Source of the DNA: Saprospira grandis str. Lewin
Lineage (GTDB): Bacteria > Bacteroidota > Bacteroidia > Chitinophagales > Saprospiraceae
DNA length: 64,000 nt
Assembly (NCBI RefSeq): GCF_000250635.1
Contig: NC_016940.1
Coordinates: 1,224,995-1,288,994, forward strand
Direction: 5' to 3'
In this document: piece after piece, positions 3,552 through 58,713 of the stretch
Numbering within the stretch: position 1 is the stretch's first letter
How the letters are laid out: each line of letters opens with the position of its first letter
The notes under the pieces: generated by a model
The model's database searches: none
What the model was told of the DNA's origin: nothing
Seen by the model: only the letters and a program-made list of their open reading frames with translations
Position numbers and translations under genes: made by a program

Positions 3552-3607
3552 TCTTTTTCGGTTTTTCTTGATTTCTCATCTAGAGGCCTTCCTTTTGGAA
3601 GGTCTCT

Positions 3608-3735
3608 TTTTTTTGGGGCCTGCCGCCTTCGGCGGCCGGGCCCTTGCAGGGCTCGCAAGCCTGCTCGGCCCTTCGTTTTTCGCTGCGCTCAAAACTCGGT
3701 CTGGCCTGCGGCCACCCTTTCAGGCCCCTAGGCCA
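3608..3735. repeat. GC-rich intergenic repeat element, forward orientation (family described in findings)
   Basis: Begins 'ttttggggcctgccgccttcggcgg' and ends 'ggtctggcctgcggccaccc...ctaggcc'. Shares the core 'gctcgc..gcctgctcggccc' with 18 other copies in the window. Coordinates approximate. Confidence 0.8.
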
Positions 3736-3815
3736 ATAGCCACTGCGGCTTTCAGCCGCAGCAAAAAGGGCCAGCTCAAAAGCTGGCCCAAGACCTAGCA
3801 GGGCGCAAAGCGCCC

Positions 3816-7667: not shown

Positions 7668-7830
7668 ATGGCGGCTTTGCCGCCTTGGCCGCAGGCCAAA
7701 CGGCCTAGCGATGTGCAGGGGTGGCCGAAGGCCAGACCGAAGCGCGCAGCGCTGAAGGGCCGAGCGAACAGCGAGCCCTGGAACGTAGCGCCGCAGCTTT
7801 GCTGCGGAGGCCCCAAAAAATCAGCGAGCC
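7668..7830. repeat. GC-rich intergenic repeat, variant A, reverse
   Basis: Sequence 'ggcctagcgatgtgcaggggtggccgaaggccagaccgaagcg...gggccgagcgaacagcgagccctggaacgtagcgccgcagctttgctgcggaggccccaaaaaa'. Confidence 0.85.
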
Positions 7831-17680: not shown

Positions 17681-18979
17681 ATGATGCACCGCCTCCTTTT
17701 GTGGATTCCTTATATATTTTATTGTTTTTATTCTATGCTAAGTAGGATTTGGGGCCTCCTGCCTTCGGCAGGCGCTATGTTCGGCAGCTCGCAAGTCTGC
17801 TCGGCCCTGCGGCCCTACGGGCCTGGGTCTGCGGCTGCGCCGCACTGCCTACCAGCGCTAGGCCCTGCCCGCCCTCGGCCCAATAACGTCCTACAGGCGG
17901 CGATAGCCGCCGCAGGCCTAGGGATGGAAAGCGGTGGCCGAAGGCCAGACCGAGGCGGCTTTGCCGCCGAAGGGCCGAGCGAAGAGCGAGCCGCGACACA
18001 GCCCGCCGCCAAGGCCGCAGGCCTGCAGCGGAGGCCCCAACTCCTGCTGATTATCCTTACCTTTTTACTGCCTGTACTGGCTTCTGCCCAAGCCAATATT
18101 CAGTTTTTGGTGGATAGTACAGAGTTGTTGATTGGCGACCAATTGACGGCTCGGATGCGGCTAGAAAGTCGAGAAGATGTACTGGTCCGCCTGCCCAACC
18201 CTACGGTATATTGGGATGATGACTTAGTGGAAGTCATTCGACTTTCGGATCAATTGGAGGAGATTAGCCCTGATGGATTAAATAGTTTTGAGAAAAAGAT
18301 CACTTTTACCTTTTGGGATACGGGCCATTATCAGCTGCCCGATTTGCCCATTTTGTATCAGAAAGATGGACAAATAGACAGTCTTTGGTTGAAAGTGCCC
18401 CTGATTCGGGTCAAGTTTCCGCCGGGCATTCGGGGCGATTCTAGTTATGTTGCACCGATTAAGGACATTATGGATGAGCCGCAGAATTTTATAGAAAAGC
18501 TGCTAGAATGGTTCTTCTTTTATCTGCCAATTGTTGCGGTAGTTTTTCTCATTTTGTTTGCTAGTGTCTTGGGCTTTTTGGCCTATTTGCTCTACAAAAA
18601 AGCGCAGGCTAGAAAAACCTACAAAACGCCTGAAGAGCGGGCACGTATAGCCCTAAAAAAGCTATTGGCCAAGGGCTATTTGGAGCGAGAAGAATGGGCA
18701 GAATTTCATACGGGCATCAGTTGGATTATCCGGAGTTATTTGCGGCTTCGTTTTAGAGTTCGGGCTTTAGAGGCCACCACTAATCAGCTATTAGATCGGC
18801 TAAATTATGAGCATCTAGAGCAGAGTTTACTCTTAGAATTGAGAGAAGTACTAGAAACTGCGGATTTGGTCAAATATGCCAAGGCTTCGCCTTTGGCGGC
18901 GGCCAATGATTTTTCCTTAAAATTTATCCATAAAATGTTGGAATATGTAGAGCGGCAGGAAGCCCTCCGCAATCGTTAA
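17681..18979 (+). CDS. Bat-operon membrane protein (DUF4381-like); true start uncertain
   Basis: Central TM segment 'WFFFYLPIVAVVFLILFASVLGFLAYLLY'. The N-terminal ~120 codons of the ORF call are occupied by two back-to-back GC-rich repeat copies (17745-18045), so the annotated ATG at 17681 is doubtful. A signal-like 'LLLIILTFLLPVLASAQA' follows the repeat with no in-frame ATG. Confidence 0.55.
   Translation: MMHRLLLWIPYIFYCFYSMLSRIWGLLPSAGAMFGSSQVCSALRPYGPGSAAAPHCLPALGPARPRPNNVLQAAIAAAGLGMESGGRRPDRGGFAAEGPSEERAATQPAAKAAGLQRRPQLLLIILTFLLPVLASAQANIQFLVDSTELLIGDQLTARMRLESREDVLVRLPNPTVYWDDDLVEVIRLSDQLEEISPDGLNSFEKKITFTFWDTGHYQLPDLPILYQKDGQIDSLWLKVPLIRVKFPPGIRGDSSYVAPIKDIMDEPQNFIEKLLEWFFFYLPIVAVVFLILFASVLGFLAYLLYKKAQARKTYKTPEERARIALKKLLAKGYLEREEWAEFHTGISWIIRSYLRLRFRVRALEATTNQLLDRLNYEHLEQSLLLELREVLETADLVKYAKASPLAAANDFSLKFIHKMLEYVERQEALRNR
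17745..18045. repeat. Two adjacent GC-rich repeat copies (forward then reverse) lying inside the 5' end of an ORF call
   Basis: Sequence 'ggggcctcctgccttcggcaggcgctatgttcggcagctcgcaagtctgctcggccctgcgg...' then '...ggtggccgaaggccagaccgaggcggctttgccgccgaagggccgagcgaagagcgagccgcg...gcggaggccccaa'. Confidence 0.8.
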
Positions 18980-24375: not shown

Positions 24376-25139
24376 TGCTACGCCTTTTTAGCCTCATTTT
24401 GCTCCTTGCCGTAGCAGCCCCAAGCTGGGCCCAACTGCCCGACAGCTTGGCCAAACAGTTTGCTATTGGCTATGCCCATTATGAAAAAGGAGACTACGAA
24501 AAAGCCCTTTTGGCCTATCAAAAAGCAGCCTTGCCAGGCTATTGCTCTGCCGAATTGCAAAATAATTTGGGCCTGACCTACGAGAAATTAGGCCAATATG
24601 GCCCCGCTGTGCTCGCCTTTGAACGCGCCCTCTTTTGCCAGCCCCAATTTGGGCCAGCTCAAGCCAACCTTAAAGCCATTTCCGGCAAATTAAGCCGACC
24701 CAAAGCGCAAGAAAAATCCGGTTTTATCTTCCAAACTTGGGACAATATGGCCGCTGGCCTCGGGAGCCATTTCTGGGCCTATAGCTTCCTGTTTTTCCTC
24801 TTTTTGGCCGCCGGCAGCCTCGCCTACTACCTCTTTGTGCAACAGAAAAAAGGCAAAACTTGGCTGCTCATCCTACTTAGCCTGCTGCTGGCCTTCTTTA
24901 GTTTTATGCTCAGCCGCCGAGCCAATTATCTGCAATTTAACCGCCAATGGGCCGTCGTCATGAGCTCAGAAGCCGCCATCCTAGACCAACCCTCTATCCA
25001 AGGCAAAGAAGTAGAGCTGGTCGGCAGCGGAAATAAAGCCCTAATTCTAGAAGAAAAAGAAGATTGGTATTATGTTCGCTTGCCCAATGCCGTACAAGGC
25101 TGGATATCGGCCAAATTACTAGAAAAAGTACGCTCCTAA
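24375..25139 (+). CDS. batE: BatE-like protein (TPR + TM + SH3b)
   Basis: TPR ('YEKALLAYQKAAL', 'NNLGLTYEKLGQYGPAVLAFERAL'), two TM segments and a C-terminal SH3b-like 'WYYVRLPNAVQGWISAKLL'. Start codon overlaps the BatD stop. Confidence 0.7.
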   Translation: MLRLFSLILLLAVAAPSWAQLPDSLAKQFAIGYAHYEKGDYEKALLAYQKAALPGYCSAELQNNLGLTYEKLGQYGPAVLAFERALFCQPQFGPAQANLKAISGKLSRPKAQEKSGFIFQTWDNMAAGLGSHFWAYSFLFFLFLAAGSLAYYLFVQQKKGKTWLLILLSLLLAFFSFMLSRRANYLQFNRQWAVVMSSEAAILDQPSIQGKEVELVGSGNKALILEEKEDWYYVRLPNAVQGWISAKLLEKVRS

Positions 25140-25275
25140 TTTGGGGCCTCCGCAGCAAAGCTGCGGCGCTACGTTTCGGGGCTCGCTGTTCGCTCGGCCC
25201 TGCGGCAGCAAAGCTGCCTGGGTCTGGCCTGCGGCCACCCCTACACATCGCTAGGCCTGCGGCGCTCCGCGCCTG
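25139..25275. repeat. GC-rich repeat, variant A, forward
   Basis: Sequence 'tttggggcctccgcagcaaagctgcggcgctacgtttcggggctcgctgttcgctcggccctgcgg...ggtctggcctgcggccacccctacacatcgctaggcctgcgg'. Confidence 0.85.
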
Positions 25276-40640: not shown

Positions 40641-40689
40641 CTACCTCCAAGCGAGGACCTATAGAAATCATCAGGAGGACCTCATAAAA

Positions 40690-40865
40690 TCCTCGGGAGG
40701 ACGTCAATAAATCCTCTTGACCATTTTACAAGATCCTCGGGAGGACGTTAATAGATCCTCACGACCATTTTGCAAGCTCCTCGGGAGGACGTTAATAGAT
40801 CCTCTTGACCATTTTACAAGGTCCTCGAGAGGACCTTCTTAAATCATCTTGATGAGGTAGTGAGG
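40690..40865. repeat. Tandem array of 4-5 degenerate 44-bp direct repeats, each beginning 'tcctcgggaggac'
   Basis: Units at 40690, 40734, 40778 and 40822 ('tcctcgggaggacgttaatagatcctcttgaccattttacaag'), a partial fifth unit and a partial unit upstream. In a 760-bp ORF-free region. Confidence 0.8.
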
Positions 40866-41150: not shown

Positions 41151-41660
41151 ATGTCTAGAAAAAATGTAATTAGCATTGATTTGCTTGCTAGTGATTTGCA
41201 GCAAATTATGTCTGCCTTTGAGACCATTGAGCAATTACTGCAGGGCAAATTGACCAACATCAGCCCGGAGGACCGTCAGCGTTATGGGAGTGTAAATGAG
41301 CAGGCCAAACTATTTGTGTTCAAGGCGCATGATTTTTATCGGGCCAAGGGGCAGTTGCTTCCGAGCTACTTTGATGCTGTAGAGTATGAAAAAGACTTTG
41401 AGGGGCGTAAAGCCTTTGAGCAGATGGAAAGCAGAATTAGCGAGCTATATGAAAAGGTTCGCGACACTCGGACGCTTTTGGATTATGATACCCTTCAGTA
41501 TTCTTACAGTCTGTATCGACATCTGAAGAACATGAGCCAGGAAGACATTCCGGGCATTGATTTTTGGCTAGAGGAGATGTCTCAGTTTTTCAAGCGTAGC
41601 ACTAACAATGGTTTGGAAGAGCAGAGCAATGATGAGGCGGAGCCGCCTATTGTTGACTAA
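41151..41660 (+). CDS. Hypothetical protein (169 aa), no recognised domain
   Basis: Clean ORF with an AT-rich upstream region. Predicted helical and acidic, with a D/E-rich C-terminus. Confidence 0.5.
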   Translation: MSRKNVISIDLLASDLQQIMSAFETIEQLLQGKLTNISPEDRQRYGSVNEQAKLFVFKAHDFYRAKGQLLPSYFDAVEYEKDFEGRKAFEQMESRISELYEKVRDTRTLLDYDTLQYSYSLYRHLKNMSQEDIPGIDFWLEEMSQFFKRSTNNGLEEQSNDEAEPPIVD

Positions 41661-41734: not shown

Positions 41735-41895
41735 TTGTGGGCTGGGGAGGCGGCAGCCATGGCCCGCAGGGCCAAACGGCCTAGCGATGCGGCGGGGTGG
41801 CCGTCAGGCCAGACCAAGGCGGCGCAGCCGCCGCAGGGCCGAGCAGACCTGCGAGCCCCAAAGCGTAGCGCCGCAGCTTGCTGCGGAGGCCCCAA
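41735..41895. repeat. GC-rich repeat, variant A, reverse
   Basis: Sequence 'ggcctagcgatgcggcggggtggccgtcaggccagaccaaggcggcgcagccgccgcagggccgagcagacctgcgagccccaaagcgtagcgccgcagcttgctgcggaggccccaaa'. Confidence 0.85.
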
Positions 41896-42013
41896 ATAAA
41901 AAGGCTGAAGTAAATACTTGTTATCTTGCTGAAGCTTTGTTAAATTTGGGGCTTGTTTTTGGGGCTTAGGGTCCTGAGCAGATATTAACAAACCGTATTA
42001 CGAATAATATATC

Positions 42014-47704: not shown

Positions 47705-47850
47705 ATTTGATTTTGGGGCCTCCTGCCTACGGCAGGCGCTACGCTTTGGGGCTCGCTATTTGCTCGGCCCTTCGGCGGCTTTGCCGCCTCGGTCTGGCCT
47801 AACGGCCACCCCGCCGCATCGCTAGGCCAAAAAAGGCCTGCGGCTGAGCT
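47705..47850. repeat. GC-rich repeat, variant A, forward
   Basis: Sequence 'ttttggggcctcctgcctacggcaggcgctacgctttggggctcgctatttgctcggcccttcggcgg...ggtctggcctaacggccaccccgccgcatcgctaggcc'. Confidence 0.85.
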
Positions 47851-56459: not shown

Positions 56460-56504
56460 TTAAAGCCCAAGAAGATAAAGGCTGCTGAAAAGTAGCCTTT
56501 TTTT

Positions 56505-56710
56505 TTGGGGCCTCCCGCCTTCGGCGGGCGGTTACTCCCTTCAGTCGTCGAACTGCGGCCTAAAGGCCTTGTTGTCGTTCCGCAGCTCGCTGCTGTTTTG
56601 GGGCCTCCCGCCTTCGGCGGGCGCTACGTTCCGCAGCTCGCTCTTCGCTCGGCCCTGCGGCCTGACGGCCTTGGTCTGCGGCTGCGCCGCACTGCTACAC
56701 ATCGCTAGGC
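56505..56710. repeat. GC-rich repeat, variant A, forward, with an internal partial duplication (two 'ttttggggcctcccgccttcggcgggcg' heads)
   Basis: First head at ~56507 and second head at ~56596, then '...cgctacgttccgcagctcgctcttcgctcggccctgcggcctgacggccttggtctgcgg...catcgctaggcc'. Confidence 0.85.
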
Positions 56711-56782
56711 CGCTCATCTGCCTTTTTCTAGCTTAAGTTTCTTCTTTGGCGGCTGGGTAGTTTTGGGCCGATGGGCTGAAGC

Positions 56783-57306
56783 CCATTTGGAGGATGCTAT
56801 TCTGCAACTGCAAAACGACACATTCCATTTGGAGGATGCTATTCTGAAACTGCAAAATGGCATATTCCATTTGGAGGACGCTATTCTGCAACTGCAAAAC
56901 GGCATATTCCATTTAGAGGATGCTATTCTGAAACTGCAAAACGGCATATTCCATTTGGAGGACGCTATTCTGAAACTGCAAAACGACACATTCCATTTGG
57001 AGGACGCTATTCTGAAACTGCAAAATGGCATATTCCATTTGGAGGACGCTATTCTGCAACTGCAAAACGACATATTCCATTTGGAGGATGCTATTCTGCA
57101 ACTGCAAAACGACATATTCCATTTGGAGGACGCTATTCTGAAACTGCAAAACGACACATTCCATTTGGAGGATGCTATTCTGAAACTGCAAAACGGCATA
57201 TTCCATTTGGAGGATGCTATTCTGAAACTGCAAAATGGCATATTCCATTTGGAGGACGCTATTCTGCAACTGCAAAACGACACATTCCATTTGGAGGACG
57301 CTATTA
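56783..57306. repeat. 42-bp tandem repeat array, 12 full units plus 1 partial
   Basis: Unit 'ccatttggaggaYgctattctgMaactgcaaaaYgRcaYatt'. Unit starts 56783, 56825, 56867 ... 57287 verified for the first two, then in register. No unique spacers. Open in several frames on both strands (+: 'HLEDAILQLQNGIF'; -: 'IASSKWNMPFCSFR'). Confidence 0.9.
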
Positions 57307-57354
57307 GGAATTTGCGAAAACGTACATCAAGACTTTGATGGGCTGTTCCAAAAT

Positions 57355-57495
57355 TCGTCTTACAGGCCCGAAGGGCCGCAGGCCTAGCGATGCGAAAGGG
57401 GGCGGCGAAGCCGCAGACCAAGGCCGTCAGGCCGCAGGGCCGAGCAGACCTGCGAGCCCTGAAGCGTAGCGCCTGCAGCTTTGCTGCAGGAGGCC
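57355..57495. repeat. GC-rich repeat, variant A, reverse
   Basis: Sequence 'ggcctagcgatgcgaaagggggcggcgaagccgcagaccaaggccgtcaggccgcagggccgagcagacctgcgagccctgaagcgtagcgcctgcagctttgctgcaggaggccccaaaa'. Confidence 0.85.
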
Positions 57496-57537
57496 CCAAA
57501 ACAACAACAGCAAGAGCATAAAAAACAGCAGACTAAA

Positions 57538-58713
57538 ATGGGAAGAACAGAAGATTGGGCATTCATTGCGGAGCATCAGGCGGAAGATTTGGCGCAATTG
57601 GCTTTGCAATTGGCCAAGCGGCCAGAGCTAGACCGCAGTTTTATTTTGGCGCAGGTCAATGGGCGGCAAAAGGCCAAGGAAAAGTTGCCAGATTGGGCGG
57701 GTAGAGCGGGCTTAATATTCCCTTCTCGCTTATCGATGCAGCAGTCTTCTAGCCAGATGACGGCCCAAAAAAAGGCCGAATACTTGGCGGGGGGCACCCT
57801 AGTTGATTTGACGGGAGGTTTTGGGGTAGATAGTTATTATTTGGGCCAAAAATTTGAACGAGTTTATCATGTGGAGCCGCAAGAGGAGTTGCAAGAAATT
57901 GTGCGGGCCAACTTTGCGCTTTTGGGCTTTGATCGGGCGGAGTTTTTTTTGGGCAAGGCCGAAGAATTTCTGGAACAGGCCAATTTGCCGGCCATAGATT
58001 GCTTTTATATTGATCCGAGCAGAAGATCGGAGGGCCAAAAAGTCTTTCGTTTAGATGATTGTCAGCCGCAATTACTGGAGATCTTGCCTCGATTATTGGA
58101 GCTTGCGCCTAGGGTTTGGGTCAAGGCGGCCAGTATGTTAGACATACAGCAGGCCTTGCAGCAATTGGGGGGTAAAGTTCGGCAAGTTTATATTTTGGCT
58201 TGGCGCAATGAGTGCAAAGAGTTGCTCTTTGAAATTGGGCGAGAGCCACAGCCCTCTCCGCAGATACAGATAGAAGAAATTTACCCCAAGCGGGCCTTTT
58301 CTTTTCCGTTTACATTAGCAGAAGAAGAGCAAGCTCGGGCCGATTATGGGCCCTTGGGCAGTTATGTATATTTGCCGCATACAGGCCTACTCAAGGCGGG
58401 AGCCTTTAAATTATTGGCCGAGCGTTATGGGCTGAGCAAGTTGGCCATCAACAGCCATATTTATAGTAGTGAAAAAGAAATATTGGATTTTCCGGGCCGG
58501 GCATTTCGGTTAATTCGGGCCATCCCTTACCCTAGTAAAGCGGCCAAAAAGCTAGGCTTAAAAAAAGCGCAAATCATCAGTAAGAACTTTGGAATGAGCG
58601 TAGAACAGCTACGGAAAAAGCTAAAAATAAAGCAATCGGGGGGCAGCTACCTCCTAGCGAGCAGAGATCAAGAAAACAAAACTTGGCTTTATGAAATGGC
58701 GCCCTTGTTCTAA
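57538..58713 (+). CDS. Class I SAM-dependent methyltransferase-like protein (THUMP-like/RNA-methylase-like fold)
   Basis: 'LVDLTGGFGVDSYYLG' G-rich SAM motif and 'DCFYIDPSRR' (motif IV-like D/N-P-P variant). Start placed at ATG 57538 ('MGRTEDW'), downstream of the repeat. Confidence 0.5.
   Translation: MGRTEDWAFIAEHQAEDLAQLALQLAKRPELDRSFILAQVNGRQKAKEKLPDWAGRAGLIFPSRLSMQQSSSQMTAQKKAEYLAGGTLVDLTGGFGVDSYYLGQKFERVYHVEPQEELQEIVRANFALLGFDRAEFFLGKAEEFLEQANLPAIDCFYIDPSRRSEGQKVFRLDDCQPQLLEILPRLLELAPRVWVKAASMLDIQQALQQLGGKVRQVYILAWRNECKELLFEIGREPQPSPQIQIEEIYPKRAFSFPFTLAEEEQARADYGPLGSYVYLPHTGLLKAGAFKLLAERYGLSKLAINSHIYSSEKEILDFPGRAFRLIRAIPYPSKAAKKLGLKKAQIISKNFGMSVEQLRKKLKIKQSGGSYLLASRDQENKTWLYEMAPLF

What the first reader, a model, noticed from the sequence alone, without database searches (positions are those of the whole stretch)
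56505..57495. 42-bp (14-codon) tandem repeat array sandwiched between two GC-rich repeat copies
Twelve and a half near-identical 42-bp units are present, with variation confined to about 5 positions (gaggaT/Cgct, ctgC/Aaac, aaaC/Tg, gA/Gca, cA/Tatt). The array sits between fsa and a methyltransferase gene, bracketed by a forward (56505-56710) and a reverse (57355-57495) copy of the GC-rich element. Because 42 is a multiple of 3, several frames on both strands stay open (+: 'HLEDAILQLQNGIF' repeated, with an ATG at 56763; -: 'IASSKWNMPFCSFR' repeated). The plus-frame peptide has a two-heptad amphipathic pattern (L..AIL.L...IF) compatible with a coiled-coil repeat protein. The array could equally be a non-coding minisatellite or a phase-variable contingency locus, since copy number is likely unstable. 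The inverted GC-rich repeats on either side could also mobilise or loop out the array.
Basis: seen in the sequence. Interest (0 to 1): 0.55.

Follow-up and report, generated by a model that had tools for sequence, protein, structure and literature searches.

The report
Hypervariable non-coding 42-bp minisatellite, Saprospira
The 42-bp tandem array is real, but it is a fast-evolving non-coding minisatellite in the gap between two inverted copies of a common GC-rich repeat of Saprospira grandis, and not a coiled-coil protein gene, so it is an ordinary though very dynamic piece of repeat DNA.

Summary
The array is confirmed: 12.5 units of 42 bp at 56783-57305, in Saprospira grandis str. Lewin, between fsa and a THUMP-like methyltransferase gene. 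It fills the 655-bp spacer between two inverted copies of a ~130-nt GC-rich dispersed element. That element has 21 copies in the 64-kb window.

The same spacer differs in every other Saprospira examined. Strain WH has 12.5 units of a different composition (ABBBBBAAAAAA). Strain Sa g1 has about 5 units plus an unrelated insert. One metagenome genome has an unrelated 21-bp x 14 array, sp. CCB-QB6 has a 41-bp x 5.6 array, and one genome has no array.

A second array of the same family lies in another inverted doublet downstream of an FKBP gene. It is flipped between two strains.

No reading frame survives across the arrays. The coiled-coil frame has stop codons in WH and Sa g1, lacks a start codon in the second-locus array of Sa g1, and has no homologue among 5.8 billion proteins.

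Best reading: a neutral VNTR that changes by slippage, unequal exchange and gene conversion, with recombination between the inverted arms flipping the loop. The closest analogue is the pneumococcal BOX element (boxA-boxB(n)-boxC). Interest is low to moderate.

The parts
56477..56506 (+). Intrinsic terminator of fsa (10-bp stem, 4-nt loop, T-run). It ends transcription before the repeat region.
   Evidence: The sequence is conserved in L005, L006, L012, L014 and L015.
56499..56575 (+). Degenerate partial copy of the GC-rich dispersed element. It shares the 28-nt head TTTTGGGGCCTCCCGCCTTCGGCGGGCG with the next copy.
   Evidence: 24.5 bits, E 3e-4; direct repeat D2.
56592..56718 (+). Left arm: a full copy of the ~130-nt structured GC-rich dispersed element, in forward orientation.
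   Evidence: 107.5 bits; alignment A2; covariation.
56719..56782 (.). Head of the spacer. It is locus-specific sequence with a small hairpin, ATGGGCTGAAGCCCAT (56771-56786), that runs into the first unit. It is conserved in WH and partly in Sa g1.
56783..57305 (.). The 42-bp minisatellite: 12 full units, all of type A, plus a half unit. The unit is itself an old dimer of a 21-bp motif.
   Evidence: For the 21-bp sub-period, 11 of 21 positions match (p=0.004).
57306..57373 (.). Tail: a degenerate last unit followed by CATCAAGACTTTGATGGGCTGTTCCAAAATTCGTCTTACAGG. It is conserved next to one arm in every strain at both loci, including genomes with no 42-bp array.
57374..57505 (-). Right arm: a full copy of the GC-rich element in reverse orientation. 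It is 78.6% complementary to the left arm. In a single-strand DNA fold the two arms pair as one long stem around the array.
   Evidence: 112.3 bits; (z = -13).
56763..57338 (+). A 191-aa ORF with a TTG start (HLEDAILQLQNGIF repeats). It is open only in Lewin and is judged not to be a gene.
56733..56912 (-). A 59-aa ORF (MEYAVLQLQNSVLQ...). It is identical to the NCBI 'hypothetical protein' P0145 of strain Lewin and is most likely a spurious gene call inside the array.
   Evidence: The frame is broken by TAA wherever a unit carries TTTAGAGG.

Best explanation
The array is a non-coding minisatellite (VNTR). It occupies the loop between the two arms of an inverted (+,-) doublet of a structured GC-rich dispersed repeat of Saprospira.

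The proposed mechanism has three parts.
- It grows, shrinks and changes unit type by replication slippage, unequal recombination and gene conversion between units. This possibly includes exchange with a paralogous array at a second doublet.
- Homologous recombination between the inverted arms can flip the whole loop.
- The open reading frames are a by-product of repeating a stop-free 42-bp unit, and the array has no sequence-specific function.

Shown: the array exists; it is hypervariable among strains; the loop content is replaced or absent in relatives; the loop is inverted at the second locus; no frame is conserved; no homologue exists.

Inferred: the slippage and conversion mechanism; that arm pairing promotes instability of the loop; neutrality.
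For: 1. Source. The window is S. grandis str. Lewin (fsa = AFC23993.1, methyltransferase = AFC23997.1).

2. Variation at the orthologous spacer. Between the same two arms, the spacer holds:
- Lewin: 42 bp x 12.5, all type A.
- WH / CP110854: 42 bp x 12.5, ABBBBBAAAAAA.
- Sa g1 / DSM 2844: about 5 units, mostly type B, plus a ~350-bp unrelated insert X.
- Metagenome genome L014: an unrelated 21-bp x 13.9 array.
- Saprospira sp. CCB-QB6: a 41-bp x 5.6 array.
- L012: only 101 bp and no array.

3. Rate. Lewin versus WH: the flanks are 97.9-99.1% identical and the array is 87.8% identical at the same length.

4. Second locus. A paralogous array lies in another (+,-) doublet downstream of an FKBP gene:
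- Sa g1: A x 5.6.
- WH: A x 7.5, inverted.
- L019: B x 5.6, inverted, followed by further 42-bp and 19-bp arrays.
The flanks are collinear at 93-96% identity while the interior is inverted.

5. Coding. Each frame is broken or startless in at least one array. The 41-bp period in the sister species cannot keep a frame. There are zero homologues of the + ORF among 5.8 billion proteins. The only annotated protein resembling any array ORF is a 59-aa hypothetical on the other strand.

6. Negative searches. There is no Rfam match at or above any family's gathering score; only four weak sub-threshold matches were found. There is no phage or plasmid match. There is no real metagenome match: one scan found nothing and the other gave four isolated single-copy chance matches. 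No Bacteroidetes -7 motif lies inside the array.

7. Arms. They are predicted to pair as a long stem. Two other (+,-) doublets in the window have spacers of only 36-70 bp, so the array is an expansion of a normally short loop.
Against: - The + frame peptide has a clean heptad pattern. The six A-to-B nucleotide differences give physico-chemically conservative replacements in that frame (FHLED to LQLRQ), which is what a coiled-coil under selection would also show.
- Lewin and WH keep exactly the same array length (523 bp) despite the different composition. This could hint at a length constraint.
- No expression data were available, so a function as RNA or as a protein-binding platform is not excluded.
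- The link between arm pairing and array birth rests on two loci only.
- L012 is a short-read metagenome scaffold, so its 'no array' state carries some assembly risk.
Confidence: 0.8

Rival explanations
1. The whole module (GC-rich arm, tandem units, GC-rich arm) is a BOX-like composite mobile element that moves or is copied as a unit. Under this reading the array is its variable internal module rather than a local expansion.
For: - The architecture matches boxA-boxB(n)-boxC: terminal modules with inverted complementarity and a variable number (0 to 12.5) of internal tandem units.
- The same unit family and the same tail occur at two unlinked loci, both inside (+,-) doublets.
Against: - Only two loci carry the 42-bp family. 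The genome scan for the A-type unit found one locus in the Sa g1 genome.
- The arms are present at the fsa locus in every genome, including the one without an array and those with unrelated arrays. The arms therefore predate and outlast the arrays.
- The arm subtypes differ between the two loci.
- No target-site duplication or empty site was seen.
Confidence: 0.1
2. The array is a functional cis element. Each 42-bp unit (four helical turns; 21-bp half unit) would be a binding site for a DNA- or RNA-binding protein, or the array would be transcribed as a repetitive regulatory RNA.
For: - The periods 21 and 42 are multiples of the helical repeat.
- The constant half of the unit has weak dyad symmetry: self-reverse-complement identity 26 of 42, p about 0.015-0.02 for A and B.
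- Three-unit B-type transcripts fold better than shuffles on both strands (z -4.2 to -4.4). Of the A-type transcripts only the minus strand does (z -3.6); the plus strand does not (z -1.4).
- Lewin and WH have the same array length.
Against: - The sequence is not conserved. Unrelated 21-bp and 41-bp arrays, or nothing, occupy the same site in close relatives.
- The orientation relative to neighbours flips at the second locus, which lies between convergent gene ends.
- There is no AA/TT helical phasing.
- The dyad symmetry disappears in the common K variant of the unit.
- There is no Rfam family match.
- No partition or regulator gene is adjacent.
Confidence: 0.07
3. In strain Lewin the array encodes a lineage-specific 191-aa coiled-coil protein, a de novo or orphan gene born from a minisatellite.
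For: - There is an intact 191-aa ORF with a TTG start.
- The a/d hydrophobic pattern is regular (positions 1, 5, 8 and 12 of the 14-residue repeat).
- Pfam coiled-coil families are hit non-specifically.
- A-to-B replacements are conservative in this frame.
Against: - The same frame has stops in WH (unit 2) and Sa g1 (units 1 and 2 and the array end).
- There is no start codon at the Sa g1 FKBP-locus array.
- A frameshifting indel in the tail separates Lewin and WH.
- No homologue exists.
- None of the six ORF sequences tested by exact look-up, including this 191-aa ORF and two other array ORFs of the window, is in the protein collection. The only array ORF found there is the 59-aa minus-strand call.
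- Only 3 of 6 polymorphic sites are synonymous in this frame.
- The single -7-like promoter motif (56758) would place the transcription start downstream of the TTG.
Confidence: 0.03

Closest known systems
BOX elements of Streptococcus pneumoniae (boxA-boxB(n)-boxC)
   Same: - It is a composite intergenic repeat with two terminal modules that pair with each other.
- Between them lies a tandem array of about 45-bp units whose number varies between strains.
- The array length changes by slipped-strand mispairing or unequal crossover.
- Large arrays create ORFs that get annotated as genes.
(PMC3049150; compare)
   Different: - BOX occurs at more than 100 loci with the same boxB. Here the 42-bp unit is at two loci only, and other genomes carry unrelated units in the same frame of arms.
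- The terminal modules here are ~130-nt GC-rich multi-hairpin elements that mostly occur alone (21 copies per 64 kb).
- There is no sequence similarity to BOX.
REPIN / BIME-type REP doublets of proteobacteria (from my own knowledge: Bertels and Rainey 2011; Gilson et al.)
   Same: Two inverted copies of a short GC-rich palindromic intergenic repeat are separated by a short spacer and can form one long hairpin. The window has three such (+,-) doublets.
   Different: - In REPINs the loop is short and conserved. Here the loop of two doublets has been filled by minisatellites of 100-1000 bp.
- No RAYT transposase was looked for or seen.
- The element here is longer (~130 nt) and has a branched structure.
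MIRU-VNTR and other bacterial minisatellites (from my own knowledge)
   Same: They are intergenic tandem repeats of 40-100 bp. Copy number is polymorphic between strains, the units are homogenised within a locus, and the units at the array edge are degenerate.
   Different: MIRUs are a dispersed family at about 40 loci. They often sit in operons, with small ORFs coupled to the flanking genes. Here there are two loci, inside inverted repeat doublets.
sopC centromere of plasmid F (12 x 43-bp repeats, each with an inverted repeat bound by SopB; from my own knowledge)
   Same: The number and length of units are almost identical (12 x 43 against 12.5 x 42). The unit has weak dyad symmetry.
   Different: - This array is chromosomal and has no partition genes nearby.
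- It has no plasmid match.
- The unit is replaced by unrelated sequence in relatives.

Membership tests
Bacterial minisatellite / VNTR | Head-to-tail tandem copies of a 10-100 bp unit | tested here: met
   42 bp x 12.5, 93% matches, no indels
Bacterial minisatellite / VNTR | Copy number or unit composition polymorphic between strains at the same locus | tested here: met
   12.5 (all A), 12.5 (A and B types mixed), about 5, and 0 units, plus unrelated arrays, at the orthologous spacer
Bacterial minisatellite / VNTR | Units more alike within an array than between arrays (concerted evolution), with degenerate edge units | tested here: met
   The private variant AACAGC occurs in the WH FKBP array, TTTAGAGG in the first three units of the Sa g1 FKBP array, and GAAATTG in L019. 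All arrays have degenerate last units.
BOX-type composite repeat | Two terminal modules with mutual complementarity flanking the array | tested here: met
   The arms are 78.6% complementary over 126 nt and pair in the fold
BOX-type composite repeat | The same three-module element dispersed at many loci | tested here: not met
   The unit is unique in the 64-kb window. The scan found one locus for the A-type unit in the Sa g1 genome. Two loci are known in all. B-type units were not scanned genome-wide.
BOX-type composite repeat | Evidence of mobility (target-site duplication, polymorphic empty sites) | tested here: inconclusive
   The arms are present in all six orthologous fsa loci regardless of loop content. 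No empty site lacking arms was found. Target-site duplications were not identifiable.
Coiled-coil repeat protein gene | Heptad pattern of hydrophobic residues | tested here: met
   Hydrophobic residues fall at positions 1, 5, 8 and 12 of the 14-residue repeat. Pfam gives non-specific hits, mostly to coiled-coil families.
Coiled-coil repeat protein gene | Reading frame with a start codon conserved in orthologous and paralogous copies | tested here: not met
   There are stops in WH and Sa g1, no start in the Sa g1 FKBP array, a frameshift in the tail, and a 41-bp unit in the sister species.
Coiled-coil repeat protein gene | Homologous proteins elsewhere | tested here: not met
   No hit among 5.8 billion proteins
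Phase-variable contingency locus | A repeat inside a coding region or promoter, so that a change in copy number switches expression | tested here: not met
   The unit length is a multiple of 3 and no conserved gene overlaps. The array is separated from the methyltransferase gene by the right arm. The second locus lies between convergent gene ends.
Invertible DNA switch (fimS-like, Bacteroides invertible promoters) | A segment flanked by inverted repeats and found in both orientations | tested here: met
   At the FKBP locus the interior is inverted between Sa g1 and WH while the flanks are collinear. At the fsa locus all three S. grandis strains have the same orientation.
Invertible DNA switch (fimS-like, Bacteroides invertible promoters) | A promoter inside the segment, a regulated gene next to it, and a dedicated recombinase | tested here: not met
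   No promoter motif lies in the array. The neighbours at the FKBP locus are two gene 3' ends. No recombinase is among the neighbouring genes.
CRISPR array | Repeats separated by unique spacers | tested here: not met
   The units abut with no spacers
Plasmid centromere / iteron array (sopC-like) | Adjacent partition or replication genes, and a conserved binding site | tested here: not met
   The neighbours are a peptidase, fsa, a methyltransferase and a histidine kinase. There is no plasmid match. The unit is not conserved in relatives.

The most novel reading that the evidence does not exclude
The loop of an inverted doublet of the structured GC-rich element is a nursery for tandem arrays. 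Across two orthologous doublets and seven Saprospira genomes or metagenome contigs, the loops hold at least four different arrays: 42-bp types A, B and C, and 41-bp, 21-bp and 19-bp arrays. The loops range from about 100 to 1020 bp, and one has flipped. If pairing of the arms actively provokes template switching and de novo tandem duplication, this would be a natural bacterial system in which minisatellite birth can be watched and tested.
Probability: 0.15. Interest if true: 0.55.

Novelty: new member of a known kind. Interest (0 to 1): 0.3.

Why it matters
The practical consequences are modest.
- The ORFs across this array, including one already in GenBank as a hypothetical protein, should not be treated as genes.
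- The fsa-methyltransferase spacer is a ready-made, highly discriminating VNTR marker for typing Saprospira strains.
- Short-read assemblies break exactly here: the Logan contigs end at the arms.

The more general interest is the pattern of unrelated arrays arising in the loop of the same inverted repeat doublet. If that pattern holds genome-wide, it would give a tractable case for studying how bacterial minisatellites are born. The flanking GC-rich element itself, which is structured, shows covariation and makes up about 4% of the window, is probably the more interesting object.

Tried and rejected
- Protein homology of the + ORF: none found. Pfam gave only non-specific hits, mostly coiled-coil families.
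- Exact look-up of four array ORFs: none is in the protein collection.
- Rfam on the region and on the whole window: nothing at or above any gathering score; only four weak sub-threshold matches on the region.
- Phage and plasmid collections: no match.
- Metagenome scans: the A-type pattern found nothing. The shared half-unit gave four isolated single-copy matches in otherwise unrelated sequence, which are chance.
- Sigma-70 promoter scan: none found. Bacteroidetes -7 motif TAnnTTTG: one match, at 56758, outside the array and not conserved in WH or Sa g1.
- Intrinsic curvature: there is no AA/TT power at the 10.5-bp harmonic in any unit type.
- Dyad symmetry of the unit: weak, with p about 0.01-0.02 for A and B only.
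- Homology between the 41-bp unit of CCB-QB6 and the 42-bp B unit: they share CTAWTCTGCAA and ATTACARTTG blocks, but p is only about 0.02-0.04, which is inconclusive. The 21-bp unit is unrelated.
- A simple chromosomal inversion linking the two Sa g1 loci: rejected, because both loci keep their flanking genes.
- The 44-bp array at 40653-40852 as a second bracketed case: rejected, because genes lie between it and the nearest GC-rich copies.
- The FKBP locus of strain Lewin could not be recovered. Only a Logan contig that ends about 90 bp after the gene was found.
- The two Saprospira genome papers (PMC3368406, PMC3387799) are not in the held library.

Full report
**Observation**

The array is real. 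Tandem Repeats Finder gives one array at 56783-57305 with period 42, 12.5 copies, 93% matches and no indels. All 12 full units lie within 3 mismatches of the consensus, and the unit occurs nowhere else in the window.

Six unit positions vary.

The array follows the intrinsic terminator of fsa at 56477-56506. It precedes the ATG of a THUMP-like SAM methyltransferase gene at 57538.

**Source organism**

Exact protein look-up identifies the window as Saprospira grandis str. Lewin: fsa = AFC23993.1 and the methyltransferase = AFC23997.1.

**The flanking GC-rich copies**

BLAST of the flanks against the window shows a dispersed family.

I aligned 16 copies. The alignment shows conserved linker motifs (TTTTGGGGCCTCC, GCGCTACG, GCTCGGCCC, GGTCTG, CATCGCTAGGCC) and variable hairpins whose stems change in a compensatory way.
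- 95.5% of cells are paired, against 83% in shuffles.
- 17 of 35 pairs have changes on both sides.
- With the 3' partners slid by 1-3 columns, only 30-53% of cells pair and only 2-5 pairs covary.

A covariance model built from the alignment finds 21 copies in the 64-kb window. The relevant hits here are:
- the left arm at 56592-56718 (+);
- the right arm at 57374-57505 (-);
- a degenerate copy at 56499-56575 (+).

The two arms are 78.6% complementary. In a single-strand DNA fold they pair as one long stem around the array, with z = -13.

The window has two more (+,-) doublets, at 3607/3812 and 17743/17908, with spacers of only 36-70 bp. The array is therefore an expansion of the loop of an inverted doublet. 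Being flanked by GC-rich copies is not rare in this genome.

**The orthologous spacer in other Saprospira**

I used the methyltransferase and its 90%-identity cluster members to fetch the same locus elsewhere and placed the arms with the model.

| Genome | Locus id | Content of the spacer |
|---|---|---|
| S. grandis WH (CP110854; hybrid Nanopore/Illumina assembly, PMC10508125) | L006 | 523-bp array, the same length as Lewin, with units ABBBBBAAAAAA |
| S. grandis Sa g1 (DSM 2844) | L005 | About 5 units, mostly type B, then a ~350-bp unrelated segment X |
| Metagenome genome | L014 | Unrelated 21-bp x 13.9 array |
| Saprospira sp. CCB-QB6 (methyltransferase 89% identical) | L015 | 41-bp x 5.6 array |
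| Metagenome scaffold | L012 | 101-bp spacer with no array |

Type B differs from type A at 6 of 42 positions.

Between Lewin and WH the flanks are 97.9-99.1% identical, but the array is only 87.8% identical.

The 41-bp unit is at best weakly similar to type B (p about 0.02-0.04). The 21-bp unit is unrelated.

**A second locus, and an inversion**

There are 5.6 units (99% identical to each other) downstream of an FKBP isomerase gene, again inside a (+,-) doublet and with the same tail sequence.

In WH the same locus carries 7.5 A units plus one B-like unit in the opposite orientation. The flanks are collinear at 93-96% identity, while the interior (array, tail and inner arm ends) aligns only as a reverse complement.

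In a metagenome genome (L019) the locus holds inverted B x 5.6, then a third unit type (C, 42 bp x 3.5) and a 19-bp x 2.1 repeat.

The tail CATCAAGACTTTGATGGRCTGTTCCAAAAATTCGTCCTACAGG is conserved next to one arm in every copy at both loci. It resembles the C unit.

The FKBP locus lies between two convergent gene ends. A promoter role there is therefore unlikely.

**Coding test**

I translated all six frames of four arrays.

| Frame | Result |
|---|---|
| + HLEDAIL (coiled-coil) | Open only in Lewin. It has TAA in unit 2 of WH, and TGA, TAA and a further stop in Sa g1. It has no start codon in the Sa g1 FKBP array. A 1-nt indel in the tail changes the C-terminus between Lewin and WH. |
| - IASSKW | Broken in WH and in Sa g1 (fsa locus). 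|
| - MEYAVLQ | Broken wherever a unit carries TTTAGAGG, and in all B units. |
| + PFGGRY | Open in all four arrays translated, but it begins right after a stop and has no start codon. |

Other coding evidence:
- The + ORF has no homologue among 5.8 billion proteins.
- Pfam gives only scattered hits, mostly to coiled-coil families, almost all below their cut-offs.
- The only database protein resembling any array ORF is a 59-aa 'hypothetical protein' of Lewin on the minus strand, equal to 56733-56912.
- A 41-bp unit at the same site in the sister species cannot keep a frame.

The heptad look follows from the 21-bp sub-period of the unit, in which 11 of 21 positions match (p = 0.004).

**Other functions tested**

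- No Rfam family reaches its gathering score.
- No phage or plasmid match was found.
- No real metagenome match was found.
- No sigma-70-like promoter was found.
- The only Bacteroidetes -7 motif lies just outside the array and is specific to Lewin.
- There is no A-tract phasing.
- Dyad symmetry of the unit is weak and is absent from the common K variant.
- Folding of three-unit transcripts: B-type units are more stable than shuffles on both strands (z -4.2 to -4.4). Among A-type units only the minus strand is (z -3.6), and the plus strand is not (z -1.4). The pairings are not shared between A and B units.

**Conclusion**

The best-supported explanation is a neutral, hypervariable minisatellite in the loop of an inverted doublet of a structured GC-rich repeat. 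It changes by slippage, unequal exchange and gene conversion. Recombination between the arms can invert the loop.

The closest described system is the pneumococcal BOX element. Its boxA and boxC ends enclose a variable tandem array of boxB, its length varies between strains, and its large copies create ORFs that get annotated (PMC3049150).

Membership in a BOX-like mobile family is not established. The 42-bp unit is known at two loci only, and the arms persist whatever the loop holds.

The most novel reading still open is that such doublet loops actively generate tandem arrays. That needs a genome-wide census and experiments.

Noticed in passing
window, 21 sites (e.g. 47707-47835 +, 41771-41901 -, 25135-25264 +, 7695-7822 -, 56592-56718 +, 57374-57505 -): The GC-rich element is a ~130-nt dispersed repeat with about one copy per 3 kb, roughly 4% of the window. 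Its linker motifs are conserved and it has a branched multi-hairpin structure supported by compensatory changes. 95.5% of cells are paired, and 17 of 35 pairs have changes on both sides, including long-range helices, which is far above the shuffled and slid controls. One G-U pair is invariant in all 16 copies, which would be a mismatch on the other strand. It has no Rfam match. It may be a REP/REPIN-like element or a structured RNA, and it is probably more interesting than the array.
   Followed up: partly
window 3607-3741(+)/3812-3944(-) and 17743-17871(+)/17908-18046(-): There are two further head-to-head (+,-) doublets of the GC-rich element, with short spacers of 70 and 36 bp. This is a REPIN-like arrangement.
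   Followed up: no
window 40653-40852: This is a separate intergenic tandem array with period 44 bp and a 22-bp sub-period, 3.7-3.9 copies, and repeated ATCCTCGGGAGGACGT / ATCCTCTTGACCATTTT motifs. It lies upstream of the gene at 41151-41660. It is not related to the 42-bp unit (p = 0.07).
   Followed up: partly
L005:5483-5725; L001:5230-5470 (reverse); L014:3567-3610; L019:5460-5540: A further repeat, called X here, is hairpin-rich and contains ATTTGGCCAAYAGTCGCCYAGGGACAAGCCCCTAGG. It sits next to the arrays in several loops, in either orientation, at 70-74% identity between copies. It is not present in the Lewin window.
   Followed up: partly
L019:5279-5465: Directly after the inverted B-type array there is a second 42-bp array of a third unit type (C, x 3.5, related to the tail sequence) and a 19-bp x 2.1 repeat. 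The loops are therefore mosaics of several arrays.
   Followed up: partly
L018:5104-5952: Strain WH has a third FKBP-type isomerase gene (282 aa). It is a tandem duplicate that is absent from the same locus in Sa g1 (L001).
   Followed up: no
L002, L003, L004, L017 (Logan contigs): Short-read assemblies of Lewin-like samples end within about 70-90 bp of fsa, the methyltransferase gene and the FKBP gene, that is, at the GC-rich arms. These repeats fragment short-read assemblies of Saprospira.
   Followed up: no
window 56733-56912 (-): The NCBI 'hypothetical protein' of 59 aa (P0145) lies entirely within the head and the first three units of the array. It is most likely a spurious gene call. The accession numbers imply three annotated CDSs between fsa (AFC23993) and the methyltransferase (AFC23997).
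   Followed up: partly
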